Source of the DNA: Minisyncoccota bacterium
GTDB taxonomy: Bacteria; Patescibacteriota; Minisyncoccia; Phycocordibacterales; JACRKE01
Assembly: GCA_041660505.1 (NCBI GenBank)
Contig: JBAZWG010000001.1
Coordinates: forward strand, 115,979 to 179,978
DNA length: 64,000 nt
Direction of reading: 5' to 3'
Shown here in pieces: positions 17,428 through 63,720 of the stretch. The notes under the pieces are model-generated. The model saw only the letters and a list, made by a program, of their open reading frames with translations. It searched no databases and was not told where the DNA came from. Both the position numbers and the translations under genes were made by a program. Each line of letters opens with the position of its first letter. The stretch's first letter is position 1.

Positions 17428-18591
17428 CTAAGCATCCAACTTGCGGGATCGGAAGACCAGCCTGCTGCCAGCACTCCACCTGCTGTCAGGAGAGGCGTAG
17501 CCGTAGCTGAGCCAGCGCCTGCCACCGTCCGCGCTGACGCTCCAGACGCGCGGATCGTCGCCACGATCGGTAATCTGCTTCATGGCCATATAGAGATATT
17601 CTCCCATAGGTTGGTCGGAATATTGGAGACGCAGGTAAACACCTGCTTCAGCGGGTACGAGCTCGAAACCGAGTTCCGCTGCTCTTGTGTAGATTTCATC
17701 AGTCGTTGCACCGTTCGGGAAGCCCAGAGATTCCACTGAAAAGCTAACCAGATTGTATTGTTCTTGTGTGCCGGTAAACTCTGTTTTTGCGAGCATGTCT
17801 TTGGCGTAGTCGCCGACTTCAAAACCCTTCGCCTTGAGTGCTCGCTTCGCCTCTTCTGCATTTGTGATAGTTGGGTCGCCTTCGACGGTTTTCAGGAATA
17901 TACTTTGGTCGGGGAAGCGTTCATAGGCGTGTTTGATTGATGGTGGAAACTTTGCATATACTTCGGGATTCCACGGGCCGATATAGGCGACGGTTTCTGA
18001 AGTAATGGCACTCGGTTCGTAGGCGATTTGTGCAGGAGTACAGTCAAAGAGTACGGGAAGGTCATCCTTTTGGTTGCGCTTCGCCTGTATTTCTTTGATC
18101 CGCGGGTCGCGGTCGTAGCCAAAACCCTCAATTTTTGACTCGATCTCGTAGAGAAAGATAAGGTCTTCTCGGGGTAAGGTTTCGCCTTCCCCCGCCTTGC
18201 GCTCGATGTCGGTGAGGCGCTTCATGTCTGCAGACTTCTTTTTGTACTTGTCTGCTTCGGGGCCGAAGTCTTTTAGTTTCTCGTCGAGCTTTGGAGCAAT
18301 ATGCGGGTCGAAGTTTTGGTCATGGGCAATACCGCGGATTTCACCGATGTGCTCGCCCTGCATGCGGATAGCTAGGCGTGGGACAATCGCTTCGCCCGCC
18401 TCATTGATTGAGTAGTAGAGGTGCATGTCTCCGCCATCTAGGTAGTTTTGCGCAGTGGTAAGATCGGCGATGCACCATTCTAGCGGGTGGCCTTCTAGAG
18501 ATTGTACCAGCTCTGTTGCATCGCCGCCTTGCTTATAGGTAATCCATTTTCCTCGTGTCTCCTGCAAGCCTTCGGTAGAATACTCCGGCAT
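17428..18591 (-). CDS. Hypothetical protein. This is the C-terminal part of a longer reading frame that continues upstream, in frame, to 19347 across a single TAG
   Basis: No internal stops in 17428..18729. The 138 nt upstream of the annotated ATG also translate cleanly (RLEQKAKPKDERTALKNESIKLSDEEFQALLSTENFSKIYAQFLIE-MPEY...). Contains an in-frame REP copy (GEGETLPRED). Confidence 0.5.
   Translation of the reverse strand: MPEYSTEGLQETRGKWITYKQGGDATELVQSLEGHPLEWCIADLTTAQNYLDGGDMHLYYSINEAGEAIVPRLAIRMQGEHIGEIRGIAHDQNFDPHIAPKLDEKLKDFGPEADKYKKKSADMKRLTDIERKAGEGETLPREDLIFLYEIESKIEGFGYDRDPRIKEIQAKRNQKDDLPVLFDCTPAQIAYEPSAITSETVAYIGPWNPEVYAKFPPSIKHAYERFPDQSIFLKTVEGDPTITNAEEAKRALKAKGFEVGDYAKDMLAKTEFTGTQEQYNLVSFSVESLGFPNGATTDEIYTRAAELGFELVPAEAGVYLRLQYSDQPMGEYLYMAMKQITDRGDDPRVWSVSADGGRRWLSYGYASPDSRWSAGSRLVFRSRKLDA
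18171..18196. repeat. REP family A copy (in-frame inside ORF 17428..18591)
   Basis: GGGGTAAGGTTTCGCCTTCCCCCGCC. Confidence 0.65.
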
Positions 18592-18729
18592 TTCAATCAG
18601 AAATTGCGCGTATATTTTGGAGAAGTTCTCGGTGGAGAGAAGGGCTTGGAACTCCTCATCGGAGAGCTTAATGCTTTCGTTTTTGAGGGCTGTTCGCTCG
18701 TCTTTGGGCTTTGCCTTTTGCTCGAGACG

Positions 18730-19347
18730 CTAGCGCAGCATGCCAATTGTAAGAGCAAGTGCTCGTGGGTTGAGCGGGGGGAACGAAGCTACGGAGTCTT
18801 TGGTTCGTTTCTGGAAACGGGCGGTCTCTTTGCCATTTTCACCTTCCTCTTTCTTGAGCTTGCCCATTTCAAGCATAGAGCGGAAGGCCCAGTATTTCGC
18901 CCAGTCGGGGTACTGTGCATCAGACGAGGAAAGGTAGTCGATCCACTTGTTGAGGCTGTGTGTTTGGTTGTTGACGATCTGTTCCGTCTTCTGCTTTTTA
19001 AACTCTTCCGTAATCTCGACATCTCCGTGCCCTAAGTCTCGAGCAATACGTTGTTCTAGCAGAAAAGCTTCTTCGGGAACTTCTTCGGGCTTGATGACGA
19101 ATTTGTCGTTGAGGACGCGCTTCAAGGCCTCGATACCGCGCTCTTTGCCTTCGGGTTCTTCACGATTTAGAATTTCATTGAAACGGTCAAGGTAGTTTTG
19201 AATGCGTTTAAGGGGCTTTTGTGAGACTTTTTCACCCGTTCGTATTTCTGTGCGCTTGGCAGCAGAAGCCACCTCTCCGCTGCTGTGGAGAGCGCTATAT
19301 TTTTCTTTGAGAAAGGCTGGGTTTTCTTCGGTAGGGAATTTTTCCAT
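18730..19347 (-). CDS. Hypothetical protein. This is the N-terminal part of the same frame, ending at an in-frame TAG at 18730-18732
   Basis: Same reading frame as 17428..18591 (both lower bounds give the same remainder modulo 3). Possibly a pseudogene, a read-through gene, or a sequencing error. Confidence 0.45.
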   Translation of the reverse strand: MEKFPTEENPAFLKEKYSALHSSGEVASAAKRTEIRTGEKVSQKPLKRIQNYLDRFNEILNREEPEGKERGIEALKRVLNDKFVIKPEEVPEEAFLLEQRIARDLGHGDVEITEEFKKQKTEQIVNNQTHSLNKWIDYLSSSDAQYPDWAKYWAFRSMLEMGKLKKEEGENGKETARFQKRTKDSVASFPPLNPRALALTIGMLR

Positions 19348-19392
19348 GAGAAGAGTATATCAAACGCCAAAATTGACGCAAATTTATCTATC

Positions 19393-19416
19393 GGAGTAAG
19401 GCGAAACCTTACCCCG
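19393..19416. repeat. REP family A copy at the 3' flank of the RAYT gene
   Basis: GGAGTAAGGCGAAACCTTACCCCG, with the loop in opposite orientation. Confidence 0.7.
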
Positions 19417-20089
19417 AATATGGATATTTTGGCTTTTTCTCTTTTTCGCCTATTAGCATTGTGGCGACTTCGCTGAAGTCTCCCTGCTCTATAAGCCATT
19501 TAAAATAGTTATTTGGAATCTTGGTATAATCTTTCAGAACCTCCGGATTTAGGATCTTATTTTTTACAAACTTATTGTCGTACGCTTTAGCACTTGAGTA
19601 TTGATACGTTTGTAGCACAGACTCTCTTGGTAAGAAATTCTTCATCTCACAGGGATTTAGGTGGATGTAATCTATAATTTTCAGCAAGTATTCTTCATCG
19701 GTTATCAGCTTACTTTTAAATACTCCTTGAAAAAGTGCGCCGCTCCGCCCATACTTTTCGTTAAAATACATTGTGTAGGCAGTGCCGAGCCGTTGCATAA
19801 ACTTACTGATACCTCCCTCATAAATTTCGTGGAGGAGTAAATGAAAATGATTCGGCATAAGGCAGTATGCCATTACCGCAACAAGTGGTTTATGGTCAAT
19901 ATCTTTTTCTGCTTCTTCTCCTTGCGATTTTATCAGACGACTTGGACTTTCCACTTCACGATCATTGAGCAAATACAGATACTTTAAAAACAACTTGCGG
20001 TCAGCATTGGACAGAAAAATATCGCGCTTCTCGGTTCCGCGATTATAAACATGGTGAAAAGATTCTAATTCAATAGGTACACGCTCCAT
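19409..20089 (-). CDS. IS200/IS605-family Y1 (HUH) transposase of the REP-associated tyrosine transposase (RAYT) type
   Basis: FHHVYNRGTEKRDIF, CLMPNHFHLLL (HUH) and YIHLNPCE (catalytic Tyr region) motifs. Flanked at 19393-19416 and 20108-20137 by the GGGGTAAGG-TTTCG-CCTTACCCC hairpin repeat. Confidence 0.75.
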   Translation of the reverse strand: MERVPIELESFHHVYNRGTEKRDIFLSNADRKLFLKYLYLLNDREVESPSRLIKSQGEEAEKDIDHKPLVAVMAYCLMPNHFHLLLHEIYEGGISKFMQRLGTAYTMYFNEKYGRSGALFQGVFKSKLITDEEYLLKIIDYIHLNPCEMKNFLPRESVLQTYQYSSAKAYDNKFVKNKILNPEVLKDYTKIPNNYFKWLIEQGDFSEVATMLIGEKEKKPKYPYSG

Positions 20090-21936: not shown

Positions 21937-22018
21937 AAAGAAACTATAATAACACAAAATCACGTCCATTGGAAGTGATTTTGTGTTTATCTTAAATTCT
22001 CTAATTCTGCAATTCTGC

Positions 22019-22276
22019 CTATTTGCACCCACCCGCTCCTACCGTATTACAGACGACGTTCAGTATCCCGAAGACGGAAATCATTATAGCCAAGCCGATG
22101 ACGCCATAAAGCATGTGCTGTCTGCCCTTGCTCCGCTCTGCCTCGTTATCAACATGATAGATGAACTCCGCAACACCCCAGATAAAGTAAGCAAGCGCAG
22201 CCGCTCCCAAGAGACCAATGATTGGATTAAGTATCGCGGACTCTATCTTACCGATAAGGGCTACGGCGGCGTTCAT
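22019..22276 (-). CDS. Small two-TM hairpin membrane protein, divergent member of the pilin-like paralog array
   Basis: TM1, short charged loop (HVDNEAERSKGRQHM) and TM2. Same architecture as its neighbours. Confidence 0.4.
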   Translation of the reverse strand: MNAAVALIGKIESAILNPIIGLLGAAALAYFIWGVAEFIYHVDNEAERSKGRQHMLYGVIGLAIMISVFGILNVVCNTVGAGGCK

Positions 22277-22295
22277 GTATTAAGCGCTAGCCAGT

Positions 22296-22667
22296 TTACT
22301 GAACAGATTGTACAACTCCGGGAGCCGGAAGAACCTGAACACGCTGTATTCCCAAAGTATCCTGCAAGAAGTAAACAAGCCCCCAGACCGAGGCAATAAC
22401 GAACATGGCGATAGTGCCATAAATCATGCGCGCGCGACCCTCTTCTTTCTTACCCGTGTCACCTGACTCCAAAATGTACTCTGCCAAGCCGTAGATGAAA
22501 TAGATAAGCGCCAGAGCAACCATAATAGGCACAATGGCGTTGAATACCTTCTGCAAGGTAACCATAAAGCCCAAAATATTCGACGGGTTACCACTCACCT
22601 GTGCTCCAGCAATGAACGGCGCGAACGCCATCATCCCGAGAACCGCTGCTTTTATGTTTCGTGACAT
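22296..22667 (-). CDS. TrbC/VirB2-pilin-like small membrane protein, paralog 1
   Basis: Signal peptide, then conserved core LALIYFIYGLAEYIL-SG-GKKEEGR-RMI-GTIAMFV--SVWGLV. Confidence 0.5.
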   Translation of the reverse strand: MSRNIKAAVLGMMAFAPFIAGAQVSGNPSNILGFMVTLQKVFNAIVPIMVALALIYFIYGLAEYILESGDTGKKEEGRARMIYGTIAMFVIASVWGLVYFLQDTLGIQRVQVLPAPGVVQSVQ

Positions 22668-22776
22668 ATACTAATATTAATTAATTCTAAATAATTTTCG
22701 ACTTAATAAATTTTCTTGATAAACTTTATAATGTGTATATTGTACCGTGCCTATCGCAACCTGTACAGTGGAAAGC

Positions 22777-23130
22777 TTATCGATTGGCTGGGAGTAGTGG
22801 CGCGTTTATAGTACTTTTGTCTCCTACGCCTGTCGTCGTTTGTATAAACGCCACTAATCCCCACACCGACACTAGCACGAACATCGCGATAGTACCCCAG
22901 ATCATTCTGGTTCGACCTTCTTCTTTCTTGCCTGATTCACCGGATATTAAGATGTATTCCGCTAAGCCGTAGATAAAGTAGATGAGCGCGAGGCCAACGA
23001 AGATAGGCACGAGTGCGTTCATGGCAGACTTAACAGTACCGAGGAAACCGAGCAAGTCAGCGGCGAATGCCACCATTGGTAATGTAGTAATCACCCCCAC
23101 TATCCCGATTTTTGTTTTTATATGCTTCAT
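22777..23130 (-). CDS. TrbC/VirB2-pilin-like small membrane protein, paralog 2
   Basis: Same conserved core (GLALIYFIYGLAEYILISGESGKKEEGRTRMIWGTIAMFVLVSVWGLVAF), with variable N- and C-termini. Confidence 0.5.
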   Translation of the reverse strand: MKHIKTKIGIVGVITTLPMVAFAADLLGFLGTVKSAMNALVPIFVGLALIYFIYGLAEYILISGESGKKEEGRTRMIWGTIAMFVLVSVWGLVAFIQTTTGVGDKSTINAPLLPANR

Positions 23131-23159
23131 GTTAAATAACTCATTATAATTAATTTTGA

Positions 23160-23555
23160 TTAAATCGTTGGAAGCCCCGGCGAGACCACCTGCACATTAG
23201 CATCAATGCCGACAGTCTTTTGTAAAAACGCCACCAATCCCCACACCGACACTAGCACGAACATCGCTATCGTGCCCCAGATCATACGCGTCCTGCCTTC
23301 TTCTTTCTTGCCCGACTCACCGGAGATTAATATGTATTCTGCCAGGCCGTAGATAAAATAAATCAAAGCCAGACCGACCATAATTGGGACCAACAGATTC
23401 ATTACACTTTTAACCGTTTGCAAAAAACTAAATGCGCTTCCTCCTCCGTTCCCTACCCGCCCGCCCACAGCTGCGTCTGCTTGCGCATATATCGTCGTCG
23501 GGATTAATAATAATACAGGAACAGCTAACCGCAATAAATTCTTTGTTCTATTCAC
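23160..23555 (-). CDS. TrbC/VirB2-pilin-like small membrane protein, paralog 3
   Basis: Core identical to paralog 2 at protein level and near-identical at nucleotide level. Distinct N- and C-termini. Confidence 0.5.
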   Translation of the reverse strand: MNRTKNLLRLAVPVLLLIPTTIYAQADAAVGGRVGNGGGSAFSFLQTVKSVMNLLVPIMVGLALIYFIYGLAEYILISGESGKKEEGRTRMIWGTIAMFVLVSVWGLVAFLQKTVGIDANVQVVSPGLPTI

Positions 23556-23573
23556 GATTATTTTTAATTTCTA

Positions 23574-23867
23574 TTACTTATTAAATTGAGGTGCGGGAGG
23601 AGCATTTAACGAGGAACTTTGTGTATTTCCCCAGACCGTTGCTTGCAGAAGATTCACCAGCCCCCAGACAGAAATTATCACGAACATGGCTATCGTACCC
23701 CAGACCATGCGCATTCTGCCTTCTTCTTTTTTAGATGCCTCGCCGGAGACCAGAATATATTCTGCAAGTCCATAGATAAAGTAGATGAGTGCGAGGCCAA
23801 CGCAGAGCGGGACGATTATACTGAAAATACCGCGAATGTTGTTTAAGATAGATTTTACGTCGGTCAT
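23574..23867 (-). CDS. TrbC/VirB2-pilin-like small membrane protein, paralog 4
   Basis: Core GLALIYFIYGLAEYILVSGEASKKEEGRMRMVWGTIAMFVIISVWGLV. Confidence 0.5.
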   Translation of the reverse strand: MTDVKSILNNIRGIFSIIVPLCVGLALIYFIYGLAEYILVSGEASKKEEGRMRMVWGTIAMFVIISVWGLVNLLQATVWGNTQSSSLNAPPAPQFNK

Positions 23868-23872
23868 TATTT

Positions 23873-24208
23873 TTATTTTAATTTATCGACAGTGGCCTTT
23901 AGTGCCTCGCTTATAACCTTGGCACCGAGCACGACACCGGCGCCGATGACCGTCCAGAGGAAGGCGTTATTCGCCGTCTTAATCTCCTCCGGCTTGCCCT
24001 GCGCCTTTACGAACATGAAGCCGACCCAGATGATAGCCATCACCAAGACCGGCACGCCGATATCAATAACGACTTGGAGAATATCTTTAAGCAGTGTCTG
24101 AATGTCTGGCGCACTGATAGGATTGCTAAGTGGTGCTGAAGCCGCAGTTACCAACGCGATCGGCATGAAGGCAAGAGAAATCGCGATTAATTTTTTTAGT
24201 GTTCTCAT
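23873..24208 (-). CDS. TrbC/VirB2-pilin-like small membrane protein, subfamily 2 member a
   Basis: Signal peptide, TM1, loop VKAQGKPEEIKTANNAF, then TM2 WTVIGAGVVLGAKV. Confidence 0.5.
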   Translation of the reverse strand: MRTLKKLIAISLAFMPIALVTAASAPLSNPISAPDIQTLLKDILQVVIDIGVPVLVMAIIWVGFMFVKAQGKPEEIKTANNAFLWTVIGAGVVLGAKVISEALKATVDKLK

Positions 24209-24265
24209 TATTTTAAATTCTATAATTCTTCAATTCCTTAATTCTGTTCGTGTTATATTGTACAC

Positions 24266-24688
24266 CTACTGGCCCAAAAAGTTAATCTTCGCGCCGAGTC
24301 CTTTAAGAATAGCATTGACGATAAGCCATGCGCCAAGAGCGATTATCATCCCGATAACGACGTAATAAAAAATATTATGCGCTTCTGTAATCTTAGACGG
24401 ATTCCCCTGCGCGGTTACGTACTTAAATCCCGCGAACATTATGGCAATAACCGCAACAGGAGCGAGAATCTTTAATATCAAAAAATTCCAAATGTTGCTG
24501 ATGAGAGTATACAACTGCTGGAAGTCGCATTCGTTTGGATCACCGCCTTTACCGCATGGCACAAGATTTGTGGCGGCACCCGGCTCAGGCTGTACGCCTC
24601 CTAATCCTTCTGCGAAGACAGTTGCGCTTGCACCGAACATAAGCAACAGGAAAGATATGACTATAAACTTTTTACTGTGATGTAGCAT
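24266..24688 (-). CDS. TrbC/VirB2-pilin-like small membrane protein, subfamily 2 member b
   Basis: Paralog of 23873..24208 (AIMFAGFKYVTAQGNPSKITEAHNIFYYVVIGMIIALGAWLIV). Longer N-terminus with a Cys pair. Confidence 0.5.
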   Translation of the reverse strand: MLHHSKKFIVISFLLLMFGASATVFAEGLGGVQPEPGAATNLVPCGKGGDPNECDFQQLYTLISNIWNFLILKILAPVAVIAIMFAGFKYVTAQGNPSKITEAHNIFYYVVIGMIIALGAWLIVNAILKGLGAKINFLGQ

Positions 24689-25958
24689 TTTTGGGCATTA
24701 GTCTTTGTAATTGGCCTGATATATACGTTGCTGCTTCGTTATCTTTAGACTGGCCAGAGAGCATACTTTCTAAAGCGTCTCTAAAGACTTTATCCGAGGC
24801 GGACGGGCTAGGGTCCAGCCAACCCTTAGAAATGAGCGCCGCACGATTAAAGATGGTTAAGACCGGATCAATAGTCCCCGCCGAGAGCAAATCGCGCCGT
24901 GCTGGCGCAAGGCGTGCGCCCACTGCAATACTCTGGAGCACGGCAGAGCCAGACAATATCGAGCCGGCCGTGAAGGCGTTCGTCTTCTTGGGGCTCGCTT
25001 GGAGTACTGCGAAGGCATAGAGCTTGCCGTAAACCGCCGGTGCGGTAGCAAGTGCACGTTGAGGCATCACGGCTACGTCGAAATTAAGGTGAGGATTCTT
25101 CTGTCGTATATCATCATACTCGCTCGCGTGGCCGAAGTAGACAGCAAGCTTGCCAGCCTCGAACATCTGCCTGGATGAATCAAGTGCGCTGTTCCACGTA
25201 TAAACCGTCTTGGACGGATCGGAGAACTGCGTATAGAACGAAAGGGCGCCGGGTGCGTTGTCACCGAGCCTGGCCTGGATACTCCCATCGTTCGTCCAGG
25301 TTGCGATAGTTTCTCCCGATTGCAAAAGTAATGTAGAAATAATATCTTTAGCATTCGTAATATTGGCATAACCGCCCAAGGCCACCGCAGACTGCGATAC
25401 GCCTCCGCGCGCATCCTTAACCGTGAGCGAAGGCACATACTTAATCAAATCATCCCAAGTCTTGGGGAATACCGCGATGCCGGCGCTTGAGAACATATCT
25501 TTGTTCCAATACGCGACCATCGGGTCTACCACGAGCGGTATACCCACTATCCCCTGGCCCGATATAAATACGGGCGCCTCATCAATGAACGTGTCATAAA
25601 TATAACGCGCTGGGTAACTCGATGTCGGTATGGCGTAAATTTTATCCTGATAGTGAGCGATAAGATCCTGCGAGAGCATTATCGCATCCGGCCCTTTGCC
25701 GGAAGCCAAAGCTTCTATAAGAGACTGGTCGAATTCCGACTCGCTGAATCCTTTATATTTAACTGTAAAGTTTATTGTCTTGTTAACCTGTAACTGGGCA
25801 AAAGTATTGGAAATCTGCGTCTCGGGTAATGTGCCCCAGATCTCGATACTGCCAATGCCTGTCGCCGCACGATTATCAAAGAGGCCGGAGAATGCAAGCA
25901 CCCCCGCAATACCCAGGAATCCGAATATGAAAAGTGAAATTATTTGAAATCGGGTCAT
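24672..25958 (-). CDS. Membrane-anchored extracellular solute-binding-like protein (putative)
   Basis: N-terminal TM anchor and a ~400-aa periplasmic-type alpha/beta domain. My recognition of this family is weak. Confidence 0.4.
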   Translation of the reverse strand: MTRFQIISLFIFGFLGIAGVLAFSGLFDNRAATGIGSIEIWGTLPETQISNTFAQLQVNKTINFTVKYKGFSESEFDQSLIEALASGKGPDAIMLSQDLIAHYQDKIYAIPTSSYPARYIYDTFIDEAPVFISGQGIVGIPLVVDPMVAYWNKDMFSSAGIAVFPKTWDDLIKYVPSLTVKDARGGVSQSAVALGGYANITNAKDIISTLLLQSGETIATWTNDGSIQARLGDNAPGALSFYTQFSDPSKTVYTWNSALDSSRQMFEAGKLAVYFGHASEYDDIRQKNPHLNFDVAVMPQRALATAPAVYGKLYAFAVLQASPKKTNAFTAGSILSGSAVLQSIAVGARLAPARRDLLSAGTIDPVLTIFNRAALISKGWLDPSPSASDKVFRDALESMLSGQSKDNEAATYISGQLQRLMPKNATSQ

Positions 25959-26497
25959 TATTCTGTTTTCTTAGCGATAAATCCGTAATGATGCGCACCG
26001 GCATGGAATGGGGGCATGACTCTGAAGCCCGCTTCTTCAAACATCTTGCGCGCGCTCGGCTCCGATATCACTTGAGCCTGCGTGGGCCCCAGATTTTTAA
26101 ACGAATCTGACCATTCTATATATAAGACCTTGCCGGCCGGCTTGAGCACACGATGAGCCTCGCGTATCATGGCACCGCGATTCTCGGACTGGAACAAAAC
26201 ATTAGATATCACTACTGCATCCATACTGCTATCTTTCAGTTTGGATCCGCCGCCGACATCCAAGTCGCCCCACACTACTTCTATCGTGCCAATGTGCTTC
26301 TCCTTGGCCTCTCGCTTGAGCTTCTCAAGCAAATCCTTCTGTACCTCTACGGCATACACATGCCCCGTACCGCCCACACGGCGTGCCGAGGCAAAGCTAT
26401 AGGCGCCAGCTCCGGCGCCGAAGTCTGCCACGCTCATCCCGGGATGGAGTTCCAAGTGCCCAATATTTTGTTCCGGATCTGCAAACGAGCCCAACAT
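25958..26497 (-). CDS. Class I SAM-dependent methyltransferase
   Basis: VADFGAGAGAYSF motif I and acidic motif II. 179 aa. Confidence 0.65.
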   Translation of the reverse strand: MLGSFADPEQNIGHLELHPGMSVADFGAGAGAYSFASARRVGGTGHVYAVEVQKDLLEKLKREAKEKHIGTIEVVWGDLDVGGGSKLKDSSMDAVVISNVLFQSENRGAMIREAHRVLKPAGKVLYIEWSDSFKNLGPTQAQVISEPSARKMFEEAGFRVMPPFHAGAHHYGFIAKKTE

Positions 26498-43546: not shown

Positions 43547-45013
43547 TTAGTTCTTACCCTTCTCCGACGAGTTGAACCAGCCCGGGAAGTACTGCTGGCG
43601 GAGCTTGTCGATGAGGTTGTCTGCCTTATCCATTCTGTCGTCTCCCATGTTTCGCAGAAAGCTCTTCAAAGCTTTGCGATAACGAGCGACCGAGAACCTC
43701 CAGTCCTTGATTGCTGACTTGAGGCTTTCTTTCTCGACGGCGTTGAGCATGTCAGACATGGATAGGACCACGATGGCCTCTTCCTTGTCGAGGAGGTCTT
43801 CGAGAGACCACCTCGTGAGATCGAGCCGATCCATGTAGGACCAACCCTCGAACCCACCGTACCCGAACAACACCGGGTAGTTCTGACGATACAGCTGATC
43901 ATATCCTTGTCGGATTGATGCTCCGATGAGGACGATGACGGCCTCGCCAGCCGTCATCTTGTTTGCCACGGACTCGACTTTAGAGGCGTCGAGCTTCTTC
44001 TTGAGTCCCGCGAGGAACGGAAACTTCTTCAAGAGCTTGGTCTCCTGCTCTGGCGTGAGTGGCCTCGGTTGGGCCTTCAGCTTCCTCGCCGGAGCCTTCA
44101 ACTTCTCGATGGCTGCGGGTACCCTTGCTGGCGCTTGCAAGGCAAGCATGGCGGCCAGAACATCCTGCTCGCCGTCGATGACGACGTCGTGCTCGGTCCC
44201 AAAATCCTGTCCACGATCCCAACCCTCCGCGAACTGGCAAAGCTGGTAGATGCCAGATCGTGGCCCGCCTCCCATCTGCAGAGCGGCGACCAGTTTCTTG
44301 GCGATCTCCGTGTCCAAAGCCCCATTGACGTCAGGGGCACTGTCGAGGACCTCGTCGAGTATCTTCTCGGCCTCGAGAACCCGCTCGAAGTAGTCGAGAG
44401 GCCCAGTGAGAACATGCCGCTTGAATACCGAAGTGGTAGCAATCTGGGCGCCCATTCGCGCCCATGTATCACTCATGTTGACGAGCCTCGTGGCGCGGTC
44501 AATCCGCTCCTGAAGTGGCGCAGGTGTCCGGAACGGGTCAACTGCCGTCATACCAGAAACTTCCCACTGTACTACGTAGGCCGTGTCTGGTGAAAGGCCA
44601 TCGATAGTGACGCTCCCGTAGCCGTTGTTGTTTGAGGATACAAACATGTTCGTGTAGTCCTGGCCGTTCAAACGGACCGTGACATTAGCGAGCTGTTCGA
44701 TTGCTGGCATTTCCTCCGGCTGAGCGGGGAAAACTACTCGCACCCACCCAACCGCGGAGTGGTCTGACATCACGTTGACTCCGTGTGTGTCGATCATTCC
44801 GGACGACACAGGAACGGCTGTCGTTGTGGGAGTCGGCGGCAGGTCGCGTGACGCTGCCGTGGCCGTGTTGGCCGCGCGGGCCTTCACGACGTCCTTGGCT
44901 GTCGCCGGCGTGGGGTCGAACCCCATGCCATTGACGCCTGCTCCGCACCCGAACGAACCGAAAACGAGTCCTGCGACCAGGAAGGTCGCGATGATGATCC
45001 GAATGGCGTGCAT
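43547..45013 (-). CDS. Secreted/lipoprotein, hypothetical (GC-rich island)
   Basis: Signal peptide with FGCGAG lipobox-like motif. 488 aa. Thr/Pro-rich linker, then a helical domain. Confidence 0.5.
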   Translation of the reverse strand: MHAIRIIIATFLVAGLVFGSFGCGAGVNGMGFDPTPATAKDVVKARAANTATAASRDLPPTPTTTAVPVSSGMIDTHGVNVMSDHSAVGWVRVVFPAQPEEMPAIEQLANVTVRLNGQDYTNMFVSSNNNGYGSVTIDGLSPDTAYVVQWEVSGMTAVDPFRTPAPLQERIDRATRLVNMSDTWARMGAQIATTSVFKRHVLTGPLDYFERVLEAEKILDEVLDSAPDVNGALDTEIAKKLVAALQMGGGPRSGIYQLCQFAEGWDRGQDFGTEHDVVIDGEQDVLAAMLALQAPARVPAAIEKLKAPARKLKAQPRPLTPEQETKLLKKFPFLAGLKKKLDASKVESVANKMTAGEAVIVLIGASIRQGYDQLYRQNYPVLFGYGGFEGWSYMDRLDLTRWSLEDLLDKEEAIVVLSMSDMLNAVEKESLKSAIKDWRFSVARYRKALKSFLRNMGDDRMDKADNLIDKLRQQYFPGWFNSSEKGKN

Positions 45014-45346: not shown

Positions 45347-46957
45347 ATGGTTCTCTTTATCGTAGCGATGATTCTGGTTTGCGGTCTCGGCAACATCGGC
45401 TGTGACCCTGCGGACTTCCCGCAGGCGCAGTCTGGCATCCAGCCCGCTTCGACCAGCTCGTGCTGGCCGTCGCAGGTTATGACAGCCACGGTGGCCGAGG
45501 TCGTTGCCCACAACAATCCTGCGACGGTCAGCCAGACCATCGCAGGGAGAATCGGGCAGGACTTCGGTGGTATCGTCGTCGACGCGACCGCAGCACGACG
45601 AGACATTGAGGTGTGGTCGTTGGTTCAAGTTATTGAGACGACCAACGGCGCCATGCCGACGATGCTTACAAACCTGCAGATGTTCAAGGGCACAGCGCCG
45701 TTGAACACAGGATCGGCGATTGCGAACCCTAGCACCTCCGCAGTGCTTGTGGTCTTCGACCAGCCGGTCTATGTCCCCCATGGGACGGTCGCGACATTCG
45801 CGACCAAGGCCAACGTTTCGGCGGCGGCACCTGTCGGTGCGAAGTTCTCACTTCGCAATGCCGGTGTTGTCGCATTCGAGGCCGGTGGTGGCCCACTCGT
45901 TCCAGTTGCGATTGACCGAACCACTGCGGGAAATACGGTCACAGTCGTTCGCTCTGGCCTTGCGCTAGGTACCGACACGTCCTCGCCTAGCTACCAACAA
46001 GTGGCTGGCGGGACGGTGAACGTCCTTGCGACGGTCGTGAAGTTCCGGGCAACAAGCGAGAACGTGAGGCTTCAGCGCCTCTATCTCGCTCTGGTTTCCG
46101 GGAGCACGTCCAGTATCGTGCAGGGTACAGTCTGGTTGGGCTCCGCGCAAGTTGGGTCGGTAACGTGGACGGGCGTGAGCACGCGTGCAACTTGCACGCT
46201 TGACTCACCCGTGGACATCCCCGACGGTCAGGATGTGCCGATGATTGTCCGAGTTGACGTGGCACCAATCGGCGTCAACCAACCCGGCCGGTCCGGCGAG
46301 CTCATCAGGCTCACCGTAATCGGCGCCGACGCCATTGGCCTCGAGTCCGGCGAGTCGGTCACAGCAACTGGCTCGGCAGAATCGATGGGCTTTCGCACGT
46401 ACAAGTCCGTGTCCACCATCTCGCTCGACTCGCTCCCCACGCAGGGAGCAACGGACGGGCGGTTGATGCGGTTCAAGGTCGCGGCCAACCCGCTTGGCAG
46501 CATCGGACTTGCGAAATTGAGCTTCCGGGTCAATACGACCGGTTGCTCGACTTCGGGTTTTAGTCTGACAATGTATGGGGATCCTGGTTACGCTATTACG
46601 GTGGGTAGCGGTGTGTTCAAGGCCACCGGTGCAACGCCAACGAGTTCCGGCCTCGTCGAGATTCTCGGCGAGCCAACCATCAATGCCGCCGCCGGAACTC
46701 AAATGTTCTTCGAGCTCCGAGCAAATGTGGCACCGAGTGGAGTGGATTACTCGGTGGTCACGACCTTGCTCGGAGAGACTGCGCCCCTGCCGCCAGCAGG
46801 GATGTCTTCGGCTCCGGAGGTCGACGGCCACGGCGGGCGCTTCATCTGGACGCCGAACAGCCTCTTCCAGTCCGGTCTCGTAGACCTCGACTGGACGAAC
46901 GGGTTCGGGGTACTGGGTCTGCCCTCGAGCGGGCTCGCCCAAGTCCGTACTAACTAA
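45347..46957 (+). CDS. Secreted surface/adhesin-like protein (lipoprotein signal, Ala/Thr/Gly/Val-rich beta-rich), GC-rich island
   Basis: Signal peptide with VCGLGNIGC. 536 aa, low complexity, beta-strand-like. No enzymatic motif. Confidence 0.5.
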   Translation: MVLFIVAMILVCGLGNIGCDPADFPQAQSGIQPASTSSCWPSQVMTATVAEVVAHNNPATVSQTIAGRIGQDFGGIVVDATAARRDIEVWSLVQVIETTNGAMPTMLTNLQMFKGTAPLNTGSAIANPSTSAVLVVFDQPVYVPHGTVATFATKANVSAAAPVGAKFSLRNAGVVAFEAGGGPLVPVAIDRTTAGNTVTVVRSGLALGTDTSSPSYQQVAGGTVNVLATVVKFRATSENVRLQRLYLALVSGSTSSIVQGTVWLGSAQVGSVTWTGVSTRATCTLDSPVDIPDGQDVPMIVRVDVAPIGVNQPGRSGELIRLTVIGADAIGLESGESVTATGSAESMGFRTYKSVSTISLDSLPTQGATDGRLMRFKVAANPLGSIGLAKLSFRVNTTGCSTSGFSLTMYGDPGYAITVGSGVFKATGATPTSSGLVEILGEPTINAAAGTQMFFELRANVAPSGVDYSVVTTLLGETAPLPPAGMSSAPEVDGHGGRFIWTPNSLFQSGLVDLDWTNGFGVLGLPSSGLAQVRTN

Positions 46958-49242: not shown

Positions 49243-51480
49243 CTATTCTTTACACTTGTTGCAGATGTCGCGGACGTTCTCCGGTACATAATCGCAAGAT
49301 GGTGCCATTTTGAAGCCTGCGCAGACTTGGTCGTTCGGTACGAAGCCTGCCGGAGGTGTGCCTCCTGATGATTCGCTACTCTGGGAAGATGATTCTCCTT
49401 GTCCAGAGATGCCCATACTCTCCGGCACCCCCTCTGGAATATATCCCTTCGGGATGCCGCCTTTCGGAATACCGGCCGGGATACTCCCCGCTTCAGGGAT
49501 TCCTGCCGGGCGGAAGTTCTTCATACAAGCGGCGATGTCGCCTTGGACGTCCTCTGGGCCTTTGACCTCGCCTTTCTGTGCGCGCTCGGCGATATTACTT
49601 AAGCGATCTTTAAGACATGCCTGAATTTCCGGTGGGGCTTGCTTCAACTGCTCATCCATCATCTTCTGCATTACTGCGCCGATATTACCGACACAACTCT
49701 GGATTGCTGCGCCTGCCTCGGGGCCGATTTCTACATCTTCGCCCGCCTCGATTTTGGCCACCTTATCTTTACCCAATTTATGTTCGATACAAGTGCGAAT
49801 TTCCTCCGGCATCTGCTTTAATCCATCGCGCATTTTCTTTAAGCCTTCTGTCTTCATTTTGCCGAAGCAGTTCTTAATCTTATCGCCCGCGTCCGGTGAT
49901 GGCGGAGCATCGCCCTTAAGCATCCCTTCGAGCCCACCCTCACCCATCGCTTGCTCGACACATTGCTTGGTCGCCGAGTCTGCTTGATCCATGGCGCCCT
50001 TGAGCTTACTCATCATCTGCGGGAGATACTTGGCAAAGCAGGCTTTGATCTTGCCGCCAGCCTCCGGCCCCGGCATATATGTACCGCCTTCTACACTTGA
50101 GATGATGTTCGGGTCAACTTCTGACTTCAAACAATCCACCACTTCTTGCGGTGCTTGTTGTAAGCCGGCGCGGAGCTGGCTCATGCCGTCCTTAATCTCC
50201 TTCAGTTTATCTGCGGGAATGAGGTCATGCTCTTTAGCAAATTCGAAGCAGGCGGTCTGATTCTTTGCGTCATTACAATAGGCATCACATGACGCCTTCG
50301 ACGTACAGCCACCGGGGCCCTTGCCCCCTGTCTTGCGCACGAGATCAGCCTCTTCTTTACTGATGAAGCCGGCCTTCTCGCCGAAAGCCACGCATTCCAT
50401 TACATTGTTATTATCGGCGCAGTATTTCTCGCACTGGTCTTTCGTCGTGCATTTGCCGGGCGACTGGCCGCTCTCGATAAGCGGGAGAACTTTGCGCGCC
50501 ATCTCCGACTCTTCTTTACTTACAAAGCCGGCCTTCTCTGCGAAGTCGAGACATTCACCGCCGTGGCCTGATGCAGTGCAATAAGTGTTGCAAGACTTCT
50601 GATCAGTACAGCCACCGGGCAATTTCGCACCGGCCTTCAAAGCTTGGGCGACTTGCTTGCCCTGCTTGAGCACGTCGGCACTAATGAAGTTATGCTTCTC
50701 GGCGAAGGTGAGGCACGAATCGATATTTTTTATATCAGAACAATATGTCGTACACGATGCTTGGTCTTTGCACGAGCCGGGGCCGTCGCCCTTCAATACA
50801 TCGGCGAACTCTTTCGCCTTGGCGGCGTCCTCTTTGGAAATTAAACCTGTTTTAGCGCCGAAGTCAGCACAAGCTCCGTAATTCTCTTGTTTATCGCAAT
50901 AAGTTTTACATTCCTTGTCACTCGCGCAGTTGCCGAGAGCGACTATGGGATAAGTGCTGATGACTTTCACGACGATAGGTTTGCCTACCGTGTTGCCGTT
51001 GTTCACGAGCTTAAGATCCATCGTTGCCGCACTGCCGACTATCGATGCGATGTTCCATTTGTAGATGTAAGCCTGACCCGGGTCTGTCGTAACTTGATAA
51101 CCGCCACCAGCACTTGAGTTGTTCGCTGATAGGTCTGCGCTGTAAAACAGCATCCAAGCTTTGCCGGAGAGATATGGGAAGTTTCTGCCGTCTTTATAAG
51201 TGAAGCTTGCACCTTTGTTCATGAGCGCGGACGTTACCACTTTACCGTTCACGTAAACCTCTAATGGATAGTTGGCGCCAGCAGGCTTATTGTAGTCGAT
51301 ACGGCCGAGCAAGCTCAAGACGCTCGTTGCCGGCACTGTCCCGGACCATGAGTCATTGGCCGCAATGCGGATCTCGTCAGGGATGGTAACCGCCTGTGCG
51401 GTTTGCACCGTTCCTAACATAATGAGCAACATTGGCACGATGCCGGTAAATCGCAAAAGTTTTTTTATTGTCATATTCAT
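49243..51480 (-). CDS. Secreted cysteine-rich tandem-repeat protein (hypothetical)
   Basis: Signal peptide. About 6 copies of a ~44-aa unit (C..K..C..YC......C..F[AG]EKAGFISKEE...), then a second repeat type, a GIP-rich tract and C-terminal CxxC. Confidence 0.55.
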   Translation of the reverse strand: MNMTIKKLLRFTGIVPMLLIMLGTVQTAQAVTIPDEIRIAANDSWSGTVPATSVLSLLGRIDYNKPAGANYPLEVYVNGKVVTSALMNKGASFTYKDGRNFPYLSGKAWMLFYSADLSANNSSAGGGYQVTTDPGQAYIYKWNIASIVGSAATMDLKLVNNGNTVGKPIVVKVISTYPIVALGNCASDKECKTYCDKQENYGACADFGAKTGLISKEDAAKAKEFADVLKGDGPGSCKDQASCTTYCSDIKNIDSCLTFAEKHNFISADVLKQGKQVAQALKAGAKLPGGCTDQKSCNTYCTASGHGGECLDFAEKAGFVSKEESEMARKVLPLIESGQSPGKCTTKDQCEKYCADNNNVMECVAFGEKAGFISKEEADLVRKTGGKGPGGCTSKASCDAYCNDAKNQTACFEFAKEHDLIPADKLKEIKDGMSQLRAGLQQAPQEVVDCLKSEVDPNIISSVEGGTYMPGPEAGGKIKACFAKYLPQMMSKLKGAMDQADSATKQCVEQAMGEGGLEGMLKGDAPPSPDAGDKIKNCFGKMKTEGLKKMRDGLKQMPEEIRTCIEHKLGKDKVAKIEAGEDVEIGPEAGAAIQSCVGNIGAVMQKMMDEQLKQAPPEIQACLKDRLSNIAERAQKGEVKGPEDVQGDIAACMKNFRPAGIPEAGSIPAGIPKGGIPKGYIPEGVPESMGISGQGESSSQSSESSGGTPPAGFVPNDQVCAGFKMAPSCDYVPENVRDICNKCKE

Positions 51481-63114: not shown

Positions 63115-63117
63115 TTC

Positions 63118-63720
63118 ATGCTACGATGGAAGCTTTTTAGAGCGGGGATGCTGGGAATCGCCGGTGTCTTTATAACTATTCTCTGCGTAGATATAAGTCT
63201 AATCGTACAAACCACCGACGCTAAGATGGTTGCGTCGGTCAGTGTTCTGCCTGCAATACCCGCAGAACAGCCAGATACCGGGATTCCAGTTCGTCTACAG
63301 ATTCCTGCGATACATATTGATGCGCCTATTATAAGTGTAGGATTAAGTTCCGATGGAACAATGGAGATGCCGAAGGGTCCCACTGATGCAGCATGGTTTG
63401 ATATTGGTCCGCGTCCGGGAGAGAAAGGCAGCGCAGTAATCTCGGGGCATTATGGGTGGAAGGACGGCGTAGCCGCCTTATTTGACAATTTACACATGCT
63501 TAAGAAGGGGGATGTCATATACGTCGAAAACGAACAAGGGGTGACTAACAATTTTATCGTCCGCGAACTCCGAACCTACGGCGAAAATGATGATTCTTCA
63601 GACGTGTTCGGTTCAAATGATACAAAGGCTCATCTGAATCTCATAACCTGCGAAGGAACATGGAACAAGGCGAAGAAAAGTTATTCCGACCGTCTAATCG
63701 TCTTTACCGACAAAAAATAG
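63118..63720 (+). CDS. Sortase (class E/F-like transpeptidase)
   Basis: N-terminal TM. His region (ISGHYGWK), TLITC catalytic Cys motif (NLITCEG) and conserved Arg. Immediately downstream of the LPKSG substrate. Confidence 0.7.
   Translation: MLRWKLFRAGMLGIAGVFITILCVDISLIVQTTDAKMVASVSVLPAIPAEQPDTGIPVRLQIPAIHIDAPIISVGLSSDGTMEMPKGPTDAAWFDIGPRPGEKGSAVISGHYGWKDGVAALFDNLHMLKKGDVIYVENEQGVTNNFIVRELRTYGENDDSSDVFGSNDTKAHLNLITCEGTWNKAKKSYSDRLIVFTDKK

What the first reader, a model, noticed from the sequence alone, without database searches (positions are those of the whole stretch)
22019..24688. Tandem array of seven paralogous small two-TM (TrbC/VirB2-pilin-like) genes with a conserved core and hypervariable ends
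Seven consecutive minus-strand genes encode 85-140-aa proteins with signal peptide or TM1, a short charged loop and TM2. Five share an almost identical core (LALIYFIYGLAEYILxSGExGKKEEGRxRMIWGTIAMFVxxSVWGLV), also near-identical at the DNA level. Their N-terminal and C-terminal regions differ completely. Two more (23873, 24266) form a second subfamily (VKAQGKPEEIK / VTAQGNPSKIT loop). This architecture is that of type IV secretion/conjugative pilins. Diversified termini on a constant membrane core suggest a variable surface-exposed structure (pilus subunit variants, host attachment or immune evasion), or a family of holin or bacteriocin-like peptides. Such arrays are poorly characterised.
Basis: partly seen in the sequence, partly recalled or inferred. 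Interest (0 to 1): 0.6.

Follow-up and report, generated by a model that had tools for sequence, protein, structure and literature searches.

The report
VirB2-like pilin gene array, Patescibacteria
Seven adjacent small membrane-protein genes in an ultrasmall (CPR/Patescibacteria) bacterium are type IV secretion "VirB2-like" pilins, a kind of tandem array already catalogued in this phylum; this copy sits in an ordered, conserved operon with a solute-binding-fold protein, far from any secretion ATPase gene.

Summary
The seven minus-strand ORFs at 22019-24688 are real. All seven score above Pfam's threshold for PF18895 (T4SS_pilin), and g6 and g7 also pass PF04956 (TrbC/VirB2).

Two details are wrong. 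Only four genes (g2-g5) share the near-identical core; g1 is about 30% identical. The DNA is not near-identical: it is 64-79% identical with saturated synonymous sites, so these are old paralogs under strong purifying selection.

The source is a Candidatus Paceibacterota MAG. Tandem arrays of 2-11 VirB2-like pilins are already described in Patescibacteria (441 arrays; one is essential in Southlakia), so this is a new member of a known kind.

Beyond that:
- The array has a fixed order, A (g7), B (g6), C×4 (g5-g2), D (g1), conserved in more than 12 related loci.
- It is translationally coupled to a membrane-anchored SBP-fold protein and a methyltransferase.
- It lies in a vertically inherited housekeeping neighbourhood.
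- No VirB4 or VirB6 occurs in the 64-kb window or the roughly 7 kb read beyond it.

Most likely the genes encode co-assembling subunits of one heteromeric T4SS filament or conduit. VirB4 elsewhere in the genome could not be tested.

The parts
24266..24688 (-). g7, class A pilin (140 aa). It has a signal peptide and an extracellular N-segment with a conserved Cys pair (C45, C54), followed by the two-helix hairpin. It is the first pilin of the array, and its start overlaps the SBP gene's 3' end by 17 nt.
   Evidence: PF18895 scores 39.3 bits and PF04956 30.0 bits, both above cut-off. Orthologs occupy the first position in every related array. The Cys pair is conserved in the 8 class A orthologs examined. 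In relatives the same position carries IPT/TIG, Ig or FN3-like N-terminal domains.
23873..24208 (-). g6, class B pilin (111 aa), with a signal peptide and a TrbC-like hairpin (loop KAQGKPEEIK).
   Evidence: PF18895 scores 39.2 bits and PF04956 33.1 bits, both above cut-off. NCBI names it 'TrbC/VirB2 family protein'. It holds the second position in related arrays.
23574..23867 (-). g5, class C pilin (97 aa). It is leaderless and carries the conserved core LALIYFIYGLAEYIL...WGTIAMFV..SVWGLV.
   Evidence: PF18895 scores 43.2 bits. Its core is 71-73% identical to g2-g4.
23160..23555 (-). g4, class C pilin (131 aa, GTG start), with a signal peptide, a Gly-rich N-segment and the conserved core.
   Evidence: PF18895 scores 39.2 bits. 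Its core is 92% identical to g3 in protein but only 79% in DNA, with dN/dS 0.04.
22777..23130 (-). g3, class C pilin (117 aa), with a signal peptide and the conserved core.
   Evidence: PF18895 scores 36.2 bits. The AF2 model has pLDDT 81, with a signal-peptide helix at residues 4-21 and a helical hairpin at 26-61 and 66-100.
22296..22667 (-). g2, class C pilin (123 aa), with a signal peptide and the conserved core.
   Evidence: PF18895 scores 45.4 bits. Against its ortholog in L002, the core is 56/61 identical but the N-terminus only 14/54 and the C-terminus 7/24.
22019..22276 (-). g1, class D pilin (85 aa). It is leaderless, has a C-terminal Cys pair (C76, C84), and is the last gene of the array.
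   Evidence: PF18895 scores 32.9 bits. The best NCBIfam match is the Mbov_0395 pilin-like conjugal transfer protein, at 39 bits against a cut-off of 40. It is the terminal position in related arrays. The Cys pair is conserved in the closest orthologs.
24672..25958 (-). A solute-binding-fold protein (428 aa) with an N-terminal transmembrane anchor. It lies immediately upstream of the array and overlaps g7, and no ABC permease or ATPase gene is nearby.
   Evidence: PF01547 SBP_bac_1 has E 6e-20 and PF13416 E 3e-18. An SBP-fold gene precedes the pilins in L001-L009, L011-L013, L015, L016, L019 and L020, adjacent to the first pilin in nearly all (in L005 a 61-nt gap, per the ORF calls). The start/stop overlap was checked in the window, L001 and L002. 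No polytopic permease occurs in the window.
25958..26497 (-). A small SAM-dependent methyltransferase (179 aa). Its stop overlaps the SBP start by 1 nt, making it the first gene of the conserved MT-SBP-pilin block.
   Evidence: Methyltransf_31, Methyltransf_25 and Methyltransf_11 have E 1e-14 to 1e-15. The synteny is conserved in relatives.
21952..21986 (-). A terminator-like hairpin (12-bp perfect inverted repeat, 13-bp stem as folded) followed by a U-rich tract. It lies between the g1 stop (22019) and the bipA start (21936) and is the probable 3' end of the operon.
   Evidence: The 82-nt intergenic region folds at -26.9 kcal/mol with z = -6.5, and 0 of 200 shuffles fold as well. The hairpin alone folds at -19.6 kcal/mol. 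The consensus terminator scan did not call it.

Best explanation
The locus is a chromosomal operon of a Candidatus Paceibacterota (Patescibacteria/CPR) bacterium. It runs methyltransferase, then a membrane-anchored SBP-fold protein, then seven VirB2-like type IV secretion pilins.

Shown:
- The seven proteins belong to the T4SS_pilin / TrbC-VirB2 superfamily.
- They fall into four classes in a fixed order: A = g7, B = g6, C = g5, g4, g3 and g2, D = g1.
- That order is conserved across many Paceibacteria genomes. Only the number of class C copies changes, and this window has the most copies seen here (four).
- The class C hairpin core is about as conserved as GyrA. The termini evolve faster than average proteins.

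Inferred:
- Each subunit inserts into the cytoplasmic membrane with the N- and C-termini outside and the basic loop (SGESGKKEEGRTR) inside.
- A VirB4-powered, monoderm-type T4SS encoded elsewhere in the genome extracts and polymerises the subunits. The product would be one heteromeric pilus-like filament or conduit, with the conserved helices forming the wall and lumen and the variable termini forming the outer surface.
- Class A acts as a display or adhesin subunit, class C as the bulk subunit with diversified surface, and class D as a leaderless base or channel subunit.
- By analogy with the essential array of Southlakia, the structure serves contact with, or exchange with, a host cell.
- The role of the SBP-fold protein is unknown. 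A ligand- or host-binding partner is one possibility.
For: Family membership:
- All seven proteins pass PF18895, and g6 and g7 also pass PF04956.
- hhalign links class C to classes A/B at 96.6% probability, E 6e-10, over the full hairpin.
- The AF2 model is a helical hairpin with pLDDT 81.
- Weak but on-target PDB hits are the pKM101 TraM pilin (E 0.068) and the Aeropyrum conjugation pilus (rank 7).

Source organism:
- The proteins carry tags WC764_00790-00810 from a Candidatus Paceibacterota MAG, on a 719,008-bp contig.

Known kind:
- 441 arrays of 2-11 VirB2-like pilins are reported in Patescibacteria (PMC12102498).
- A pilin array is essential in Southlakia (PMC10633639; review PMC12857230).

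Ordered classes and conserved synteny:
- Searches show the same class order and gene neighbourhood in related loci.

Operon structure:
- Same-strand gaps run from -17 to 109 nt, and MT/SBP and SBP/g7 overlap.
- A strong hairpin follows g1.

Topology:
- Cys pairs occur only in the termini.
- IPT/TIG, Ig or FN3-like domains are inserted between the signal peptide and the hairpin of class A in relatives.

Co-assembly:
- Single ORFs with 2-8 fused pilin hairpins exist in the wider family.

Selection:
- Synonymous sites are saturated while the core is 71-92% identical in protein, with dN/dS 0.04 for g3/g4.
- The g2 core matches its L002 ortholog at 56/61. Across the same two genomes GyrA is 93% identical, ArgRS 63% and SBP 66%.
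Against: - No VirB4, VirB6, VirB3, VirB8 or VirD4 homolog was seen in the 64-kb window or the roughly 7 kb read beyond it. The rest of the 719-kb genome could not be searched.
- No pilus has ever been observed for any Patescibacteria T4SS.
- The Foldseek and PDB matches are not significant, as expected for a bare helical hairpin.
- The class roles (tip, bulk, base) are inference only.
- The consensus promoter and terminator scans were at chance level.
Confidence: 0.6

Rival explanations
1. Alternative-variant model. The class C paralogs, and perhaps all seven genes, are interchangeable major pilins used one at a time or in shifting ratios. This would change the pilus surface for different host strains or to escape phage or host recognition, as proposed for the VirB2 paralogs of Bartonella and Anaplasma.
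For: - Class C copy number varies from 1 to 4 between genomes.
- The termini diverge much faster than the core and faster than average proteins.
- A 5-gene version of the 6-gene L002 array has two neighbouring class C genes fused through a 35-nt exact repeat in the core, which is compatible with unequal crossover that reshuffles termini.
- The 2025 survey suggests host-strain adaptation.
Against: - The genes are tightly packed on one strand with no sign of separate promoters or invertible elements.
- Classes A, B and D are single-copy and positionally conserved across distant genomes.
- Fused multi-hairpin proteins imply joint use in one structure.
- The paralogs are ancient, with saturated dS, not recently diversified.
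- The chimeric contig has 2.3x coverage and may be an assembly collapse.
Confidence: 0.2
2. T4SS-independent membrane module. The SBP-fold protein and the small two-helix proteins form their own envelope complex, for example a ligand-capture, uptake or sensing device. It would use the VirB2 fold only as a membrane or oligomerisation scaffold and would not depend on VirB4.
For: - An SBP-fold gene precedes the first pilin in every related locus examined, and their coding sequences overlap where this was checked.
- The block sits in a stable housekeeping neighbourhood (HisRS-LepB-Pth-S1-GyrA), not in a T4SS cluster.
- No T4SS genes were found in the 64-kb window or the roughly 7 kb read beyond it.
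- The SBP has no cognate ABC permease nearby.
Against: - Sequence membership in the T4SS pilin families is above curated thresholds.
- VirB4 is present in 2,417 of 3,035 Patescibacteria assemblies, and in about 40% of VirB4+/pilin+ genomes the pilin is not near virB4. Distance from virB4 is therefore common and not diagnostic.
- No precedent is known to me for VirB2-like proteins working without a T4SS.
Confidence: 0.15
3. The genes encode holins, bacteriocin-like peptides or immunity proteins, or they are spurious ORFs.
For: They are small two-TM proteins arranged in tandem, which is all this reading rests on.
Against: - No holin or lysis family was hit in PHROGs at E<0.1; only weak unknown-function or membrane-protein matches appeared.
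- No lysin, phage or bacteriocin-processing genes are nearby.
- Strong purifying selection, with orthologs in many genomes, shows these are real genes.
- All seven pass PF18895.
Confidence: 0.02

Closest known systems
Patescibacteria VirB2-like pilin arrays (Quinonero-Coronel et al. 2025, PMC12102498; essential six-pilin array of Ca. Southlakia epibionticum, Wang et al. 2023, PMC10633639)
   Same: The phylum is the same and the Pfam families are the same (PF18895/PF04956). The layout is a tandem array within the reported 2-11 gene range. The location is chromosomal, with no relaxase or coupling protein nearby. The proteins are structurally conserved but divergent in sequence.
   Different: - This array is not inside or beside a virB4 cluster, unlike in Southlakia.
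[quoted passage not shown]
- Within-array identity reaches 79% overall and 92% in the core (g3/g4), above the reported maximum of 54%.
- The array has a fixed A-B-Cn-D order and is coupled to an SBP-fold protein and a methyltransferase. Neither paper mentions this; no occurrence of 'solute' or 'substrate-binding' was found.
TrbC/VirB2 conjugative pilins of diderm T4SS (RP4 TrbC, Agrobacterium VirB2, pKM101 TraM, F TraA)
   Same: The architecture is a signal peptide followed by two hydrophobic helices joined by a short basic loop. g6 and g7 pass PF04956. The predicted topology, termini out and loop in, matches the solved pili, where the loop lines the lumen (established knowledge; not tested here).
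   Different: - The host is a monoderm.
- There are seven genes in four classes instead of one major pilin.
- g1-g5 match only PF18895.
- No VirB5, VirB1 or cyclase/TraF-type maturation genes are linked.
- Processing such as cyclisation or acetylation is unknown.
Mbov_0395 / ICE_MMCAP2_0565 pilin-like conjugal transfer protein of Mycoplasma ICEs (NF045849)
   Same: Both are leaderless two-helix proteins of about 80 aa from a monoderm T4SS. g1 aligns over the whole 80-residue profile (7-79) with E 5e-10.
   Different: The score of 39.0 bits is just below the 40-bit cut-off. The locus is not on an ICE, and the other six genes score much lower (23-29 bits).
Minor-pilin / pseudopilin operons of type IV pili and T2SS (e.g. 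FimU-PilVWXE, GspG-K)
   Same: This is a functional analogy only. In both cases an ordered operon encodes several distinct, co-assembling pilin classes, including one that carries an adhesin-like domain.
   Different: The fold and the machinery are unrelated: class III signal peptide and PilD processing there, against a VirB2-type hairpin here. There is no sequence relationship.
Tandem VirB2 paralogs in Bartonella / Anaplasma virulence T4SS
   Same: virB2-like genes are amplified in tandem with divergent surface parts.
   Different: Those are diderm intracellular pathogens of animals, and their variation is linked to immune evasion. Here the paralogs are ancient, ordered classes in a core-genome operon.

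Membership tests
Pfam PF18895 T4SS_pilin | HMM score at or above the gathering threshold (26.6 bits) over most of the 71-position profile | tested here: met
   All seven proteins score 32.9-45.4 bits and cover profile positions about 4-12 to 70-71.
Pfam PF04956 TrbC/VirB2 pilin | HMM score at or above the gathering threshold (27.9 bits) | tested here: met
   Met for g6 (33.1 bits) and g7 (30.0 bits) only. g1-g5 gave no PF04956 hit at E<=1. g1-g5 are linked to the g6/g7 group by hhalign at 96.6% probability, E 6e-10.
VirB2-type T4SS pilin (functional family) | Signal peptide or N-tail, two transmembrane helices, and a short basic connecting loop | tested here: met
   Hydropathy shows 2 TM helices in all seven proteins, plus a signal peptide in g2, g3, g4, g6 and g7. 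The loop is SGESGKKEEGRTR in g3 and g4, and g2 and g5 carry close variants. AF2 predicts a hairpin at H26-61/H66-100.
VirB2-type T4SS pilin (functional family) | Genome encodes the cognate T4SS (VirB4 ATPase, VirB6/VirB3-like channel parts) | not testable with these tools
   None were found in the 64-kb window or about 7 kb of flanks. The remaining ~650 kb of the contig could not be read. The prior is that VirB4 occurs in 2,417 of 3,035 Patescibacteria assemblies.
VirB2-type T4SS pilin (functional family) | Polymerises into an extracellular pilus or is required for substrate transfer | not testable with these tools
   This needs microscopy or genetics. Only indirect support exists: extracytoplasmic markers in the termini.
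Patescibacteria VirB2 pilin array (PMC12102498) | At least 2 PF04956/PF18895 genes in tandem (or separated by one gene) in a Patescibacteria genome | tested here: met
   Seven adjacent genes are present. The source is annotated as a Candidatus Paceibacterota bacterium.
Patescibacteria VirB2 pilin array (PMC12102498) | High within-array divergence (reported mean 25%, maximum 54% identity) | tested here: not met
   Cross-class identities are 18-33%, which is typical. The class C pairs exceed the reported maximum: g3/g4 are 79% identical over 74% of the length and 92% in the core. This is a descriptive statistic rather than a defining criterion.
NCBIfam NF045849 Mbov_0395 pilin-like conjugal transfer protein | Score at or above the 40-bit cut-off | tested here: not met
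   g1 scores 39.0 bits, just below the cut-off. The others score 23-29 bits.
Phage holins | Match to a holin family, and linkage to an endolysin | tested here: not met
   PHROGs gave no holin hit at E<=0.1. No lysin was found among the neighbours.

The most novel reading that the evidence does not exclude
The MT-SBP-pilin(A-B-Cn-D) block may be a distinct, vertically inherited apparatus of Paceibacteria. It is conserved from this genome to Nomurabacteria-like relatives and sits away from the virB4 cluster. In this reading, a membrane-anchored solute-binding-fold protein works together with a heteromeric VirB2-type filament, whose first subunit can carry adhesin-like domains. Together they would capture or import host-derived molecules. 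That would be a nutrient-scavenging or host-docking use of T4SS pilins rather than secretion or conjugation. Unequal recombination through the ultra-conserved class C core would reshuffle the surface-exposed termini.
Probability: 0.15. Interest if true: 0.7.

Novelty: new member of a known kind. Interest (0 to 1): 0.35.

Why it matters
Patescibacteria make up a large share of uncultured bacterial diversity and live attached to host cells. Their T4SS and its pilin array are among the few systems shown to be essential for that lifestyle, in Southlakia. Nobody knows what structure the pilins build or what passes through it.

This locus does not change that picture, but it adds usable detail:
- The array is an ordered set of four ancient classes, which argues for one heteromeric structure rather than interchangeable variants.
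- The hairpin core is under extreme constraint while the termini are free to vary, which marks the termini as the outward-facing, host-interacting surface.
- The array is locked to an SBP-fold protein in a core-genome operon across Paceibacteria, which gives a concrete candidate partner to test.

These points could guide construct design for structural work and for pull-downs in the few cultivable Paceibacteria.

Tried and rejected
1. Finding VirB4/VirB6 in the same genome.
- I scanned all large ORFs of the window with Pfam and NCBIfam.
- I checked Walker A motifs and transmembrane counts.
- I extended both window ends through exact-protein look-ups, which reached about 5 kb upstream and about 1 kb downstream.
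- I searched for further WC764 pilins that might mark the T4SS cluster, with g7 alone and with a 40-sequence profile. Only the array's own genes came back.
- The rest of the 719-kb contig is out of reach with these tools.

2. GTDB genome scan. It gave only 6 loci. The source genome was not returned, and one hit (L010, Anaerolineales) is a chance motif match in a 509-aa protein.

3. Structure-based confirmation. Foldseek against the PDB gave no significant hit, with best E 0.45 to unrelated channels. The PDB profile search gave only a marginal TraM hit. A bare helical hairpin is not discriminating, so the family assignment rests on HMMs.

4. Consensus promoter and terminator scan. Results were at chance level. 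The g1-bipA hairpin was found by eye and then tested.

5. Holin hypothesis. PHROGs gave nothing, so I rejected it.

6. Recent gene conversion as the cause of the identical core. I rejected this because synonymous sites are saturated.

I re-ran it with A1.


Full report
**What is there**

ORF listing confirms seven consecutive minus-strand ORFs at exactly the stated coordinates:

| Gene | Coordinates | Length |
|---|---|---|
| g1 | 22019-22276 | 85 aa |
| g2 | 22296-22667 | 123 aa |
| g3 | 22777-23130 | 117 aa |
| g4 | 23160-23555 | 131 aa, GTG start |
| g5 | 23574-23867 | 97 aa |
| g6 | 23873-24208 | 111 aa |
| g7 | 24266-24688 | 140 aa |

- Each protein has two hydrophobic helices around a short charged loop.
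- g2, g3, g4, g6 and g7 also have a signal peptide ending in an AxA-type site.
- g1 and g5 are leaderless.
- Gaps between the genes are 5-109 nt.

**Corrections to the observation**

- Only four genes (g2-g5) share the near-identical core, at 71-92% identity over 63 residues. g1 is only 29-35% identical over the same stretch.
- The DNA is not near-identical. Core nucleotide identity is 64-79% and third-position identity 32-54%. The repeat finder sees 67-78% over 203 nt.
- Nei-Gojobori pS is 0.68-0.93, which is saturated. dN/dS is 0.04 for the closest pair, g3/g4.
- The identical protein core therefore reflects long-standing purifying selection on old duplicates. It does not reflect recent duplication or gene conversion.
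- The termini really are unrelated between paralogs. The N-terminus has 2-14 identical out of 37-52 columns and the C-terminus 4-6 out of about 20, against 45-57 out of 61 in the core.

**Family**

- All seven proteins exceed the Pfam gathering score for PF18895 (T4SS_pilin; 32.9-45.4 bits against 26.6).
- g6 and g7 also exceed it for PF04956 (TrbC/VirB2; 33.1 and 30.0 bits against 27.9).
- g1 nearly reaches the NCBIfam cut-off for the Mycoplasma-ICE pilin-like protein Mbov_0395 (39 against 40 bits).
- A profile of the conserved-core group aligns with a profile of the g6/g7 group over the whole hairpin at 96.6% probability, E 6e-10.
- AlphaFold2 on g3 with 24 homologs gives a signal-peptide helix and a long helical hairpin at residues 26-61 and 66-100, with mean pLDDT 81.
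- Fold and sequence searches against solved structures are not significant, as expected for a bare hairpin. The on-target hits are weak: pKM101 TraM at E 0.068 and the Aeropyrum conjugation pilus at rank 7.
- PHROGs shows no holin family.
- With the seven-sequence profile, 46,788 clusters at 50% identity match at E<=1e-3 and 7,852 at E<=1e-10. The family is very large.

**Source and context**

- The proteins are WC764_00790 to WC764_00810 and onwards, from a 'Candidatus Paceibacterota bacterium' MAG on a 719,008-bp contig. NCBI already names g6 'TrbC/VirB2 family protein'.
- The surroundings are housekeeping genes. They include BipA/TypA (true start 21936), ArgRS, IF-2, ClpB, GyrA, Pth, S1, LepB, HisRS, FtsA/FtsZ and 13 tRNAs.
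- No VirB4, VirB6, VirB3, VirB8, VirD4 or relaxase is present in the window. None is present in the about 5 kb upstream or about 1 kb downstream that exact-protein look-ups could reach.
- The only polytopic membrane protein in the window is MurJ.

**A conserved, ordered operon**

- Immediately upstream are a membrane-anchored SBP_bac_1-fold protein (24672-25958) and a small SAM methyltransferase (25958-26497).
- MT/SBP overlap by 1 nt and SBP/g7 by 17 nt.
- After g1 there is a strong hairpin at 21952-21986 followed by a U-rich tract, before bipA. The intergenic fold has z = -6.5, and 0 of 200 shuffles fold as well.
- The same MT-SBP-pilin block recurs in every related locus examined: L001-L004, L011-L013, L015, L016, L019 and L020 from metagenomes, and L005-L009 from GTDB species.
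- It usually lies downstream of GyrA. Where more flank was visible (L015, L016), it sits within the wider string HisRS-LepB-Pth-S1-MBL-GyrA.
- Best-match classification shows a fixed gene order everywhere:
  - class A is g7-like, with an N-terminal Cys pair;
  - class B is g6-like;
  - class C carries the LALIYFIYGLAEY core, in one to four copies;
  - class D is g1-like, leaderless, and carries a C-terminal Cys pair in the closest relatives.
- Arrays have 5-7 genes. This window has the most class C copies seen here (four).

**Rates**

| Comparison, window vs L002 | Identity |
|---|---|
| GyrA | 93% |
| ArgRS | 63% |
| SBP | 66% |
| Methyltransferase | 69% |
| Class C core, g2 vs its ortholog | 56/61 |
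| N-terminus, g2 vs its ortholog | 14/54 |
| C-terminus, g2 vs its ortholog | 7/24 |

- The core is as constrained as gyrase. The termini evolve faster than average proteins.

**Topology and exposure (inference from sequence)**

- The basic loop (SGESGKKEEGRTR) fits a cytoplasmic location, with both termini outside.
- Paired cysteines occur only in the termini.
- In relatives, class A carries an IPT/TIG domain (L007) or an insert of about 130 to 480 residues that is Ig- or FN3-like in L019 (L016, L019). The insert sits between the signal peptide and the hairpin.
- In L006 and L008 the class D position appears fused to a 250-400-aa C-terminal extension. The Pfam evidence for this is weak.
- In a VirB2-type pilus the termini form the outer surface and the loop lines the lumen. 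This is established knowledge for the F, T and pKM101 pili and was not tested here.

**Co-assembly versus alternatives**

- Many top hits in the representative library are single ORFs with 2-8 fused pilin hairpins. Examples are P0155 (501 aa, six hairpins) and P0166 (820 aa, eight).
- Such fusions are topologically compatible only if neighbouring hairpins sit side by side in one structure.
- Together with the conserved class order and the tight operon, this favours one heteromeric assembly over mutually exclusive variants.
- The variant model keeps some support. Class C copy number varies.
- One contig (L011) also carries a 5-gene version of the 6-gene L002 array, in which two neighbouring class C genes are joined at a 35-nt exact repeat in the core. 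Its flanks are 100% identical to L002 over 3,131 + 755 nt.
- At 2.3x coverage this may be an assembly collapse rather than a real unequal crossover.

**Comparison with what is known**

- Quinonero-Coronel et al. 2025 (PMC12102498) found VirB4 in 2,417 of 3,035 Patescibacteria assemblies and VirB2-like pilins in 1,948 VirB4-positive assemblies.
- In those assemblies the pilin is near virB4 in 1,135. They counted 441 arrays of 2-11 pilin genes, with mean within-array identity of 25% and a maximum of 54%.
- In Paceibacteria, virB4 tends to lie near dnaA.
- Wang et al. 2023 (PMC10633639) showed that the pilin series within the Southlakia T4SS cluster is essential.
- A 2025 review proposes a pilus-like conduit (PMC12857230).
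- The present array is therefore a new member of a known kind.
- It differs in four ways:
  - it is remote from any virB4;
  - it has much more similar class C paralogs;
  - it has a conserved four-class order;
  - it is coupled to an SBP-fold protein and a methyltransferase.
- The survey does not mention this coupling, and I did not find it in the literature searched.

**Verdict**

- The pilin interpretation is supported at family level.
- The claim that such arrays are 'poorly characterised' is outdated.
- The most likely mechanism is co-assembling subunits of a T4SS-dependent surface filament or conduit with a variable outer surface. This is an inference.
- The key missing test is the presence of VirB4 elsewhere in this genome, which I could not run.

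Noticed in passing
P0155, P0156, P0166 and many other hits (not in the window): Single ORFs contain 2-8 tandem VirB2-like hairpins ('polypilins'), for example 820 aa with eight hairpins. They look like real fusions rather than gene-calling read-through, since eight in-frame units are unlikely by chance. I did not find them described in the literature I searched.
   Followed up: partly
L011:7084-7494 versus L002:9512-10420: Protein P0021 is a chimera of two adjacent class C pilins. The junction lies in a 35-nt exact repeat within the conserved core, and the flanks are otherwise 100% identical to L002. It is either an unequal-crossover deletion or an assembly collapse; the contig has 2.3x coverage.
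   Followed up: partly
L007:8198-8980; L016:9084-9911; L019:6715-8607: In relatives the class A pilin carries a large extracellular N-terminal insert: IPT/TIG in L007, an unclassified insert of about 130 aa in L016, and about 480 aa with Ig/FN3-like hits in L019. This suggests an adhesin-displaying pilin.
   Followed up: partly
L006:10336-11370; L008:2632-4095: In these relatives the last (class D) position appears fused to a 250-400-aa C-terminal extension with no Pfam match. Only a weak, sub-threshold PF18895 hit covers the N-terminal hairpin.
   Followed up: no
window 17428-20089 (-): Compared with L002, about 2.8 kb is inserted between bipA and argS. It holds an IS200-like Y1 transposase (19409-20089) and two ORFs with no family match (18730-19347 and 17428-18591).
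   Followed up: no
window 49243-51480 (-): A 745-aa secreted protein has no Pfam or NCBIfam match. It contains a run of Cys-rich repeats of about 45 aa (C..D..C..YC......C..F..K.G.ISKE).
   Followed up: no
window 43547-45013 (-) and 45347-46957 (+): Two divergently oriented genes encode secreted or anchored proteins of about 500 aa with no family match. They lie in a locally GC-rich stretch (0.56-0.57, against about 0.49 for the window).
   Followed up: no
window 61570-63720 (+): An ice-binding-like (PF11999) surface protein with a C-terminal TM segment is followed directly by a sortase gene. This is probably a sortase-anchored surface protein pair.
   Followed up: no
window 24266-24688 (-): One database copy of g7 is annotated as 124 aa, starting at an internal Met. 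The 140-aa ORF restores a proper signal peptide, and its overlap with the SBP gene matches the overlaps seen in L001 and L002, so the longer start is more plausible.
   Followed up: partly
L017 (about 5 kb upstream of the window start): ParB, RelA/SpoT, TopA and DprA lie just upstream of the window. Cumulative GC skew falls steadily across the whole window with no switch, so the window lies on a single replichore.
   Followed up: no
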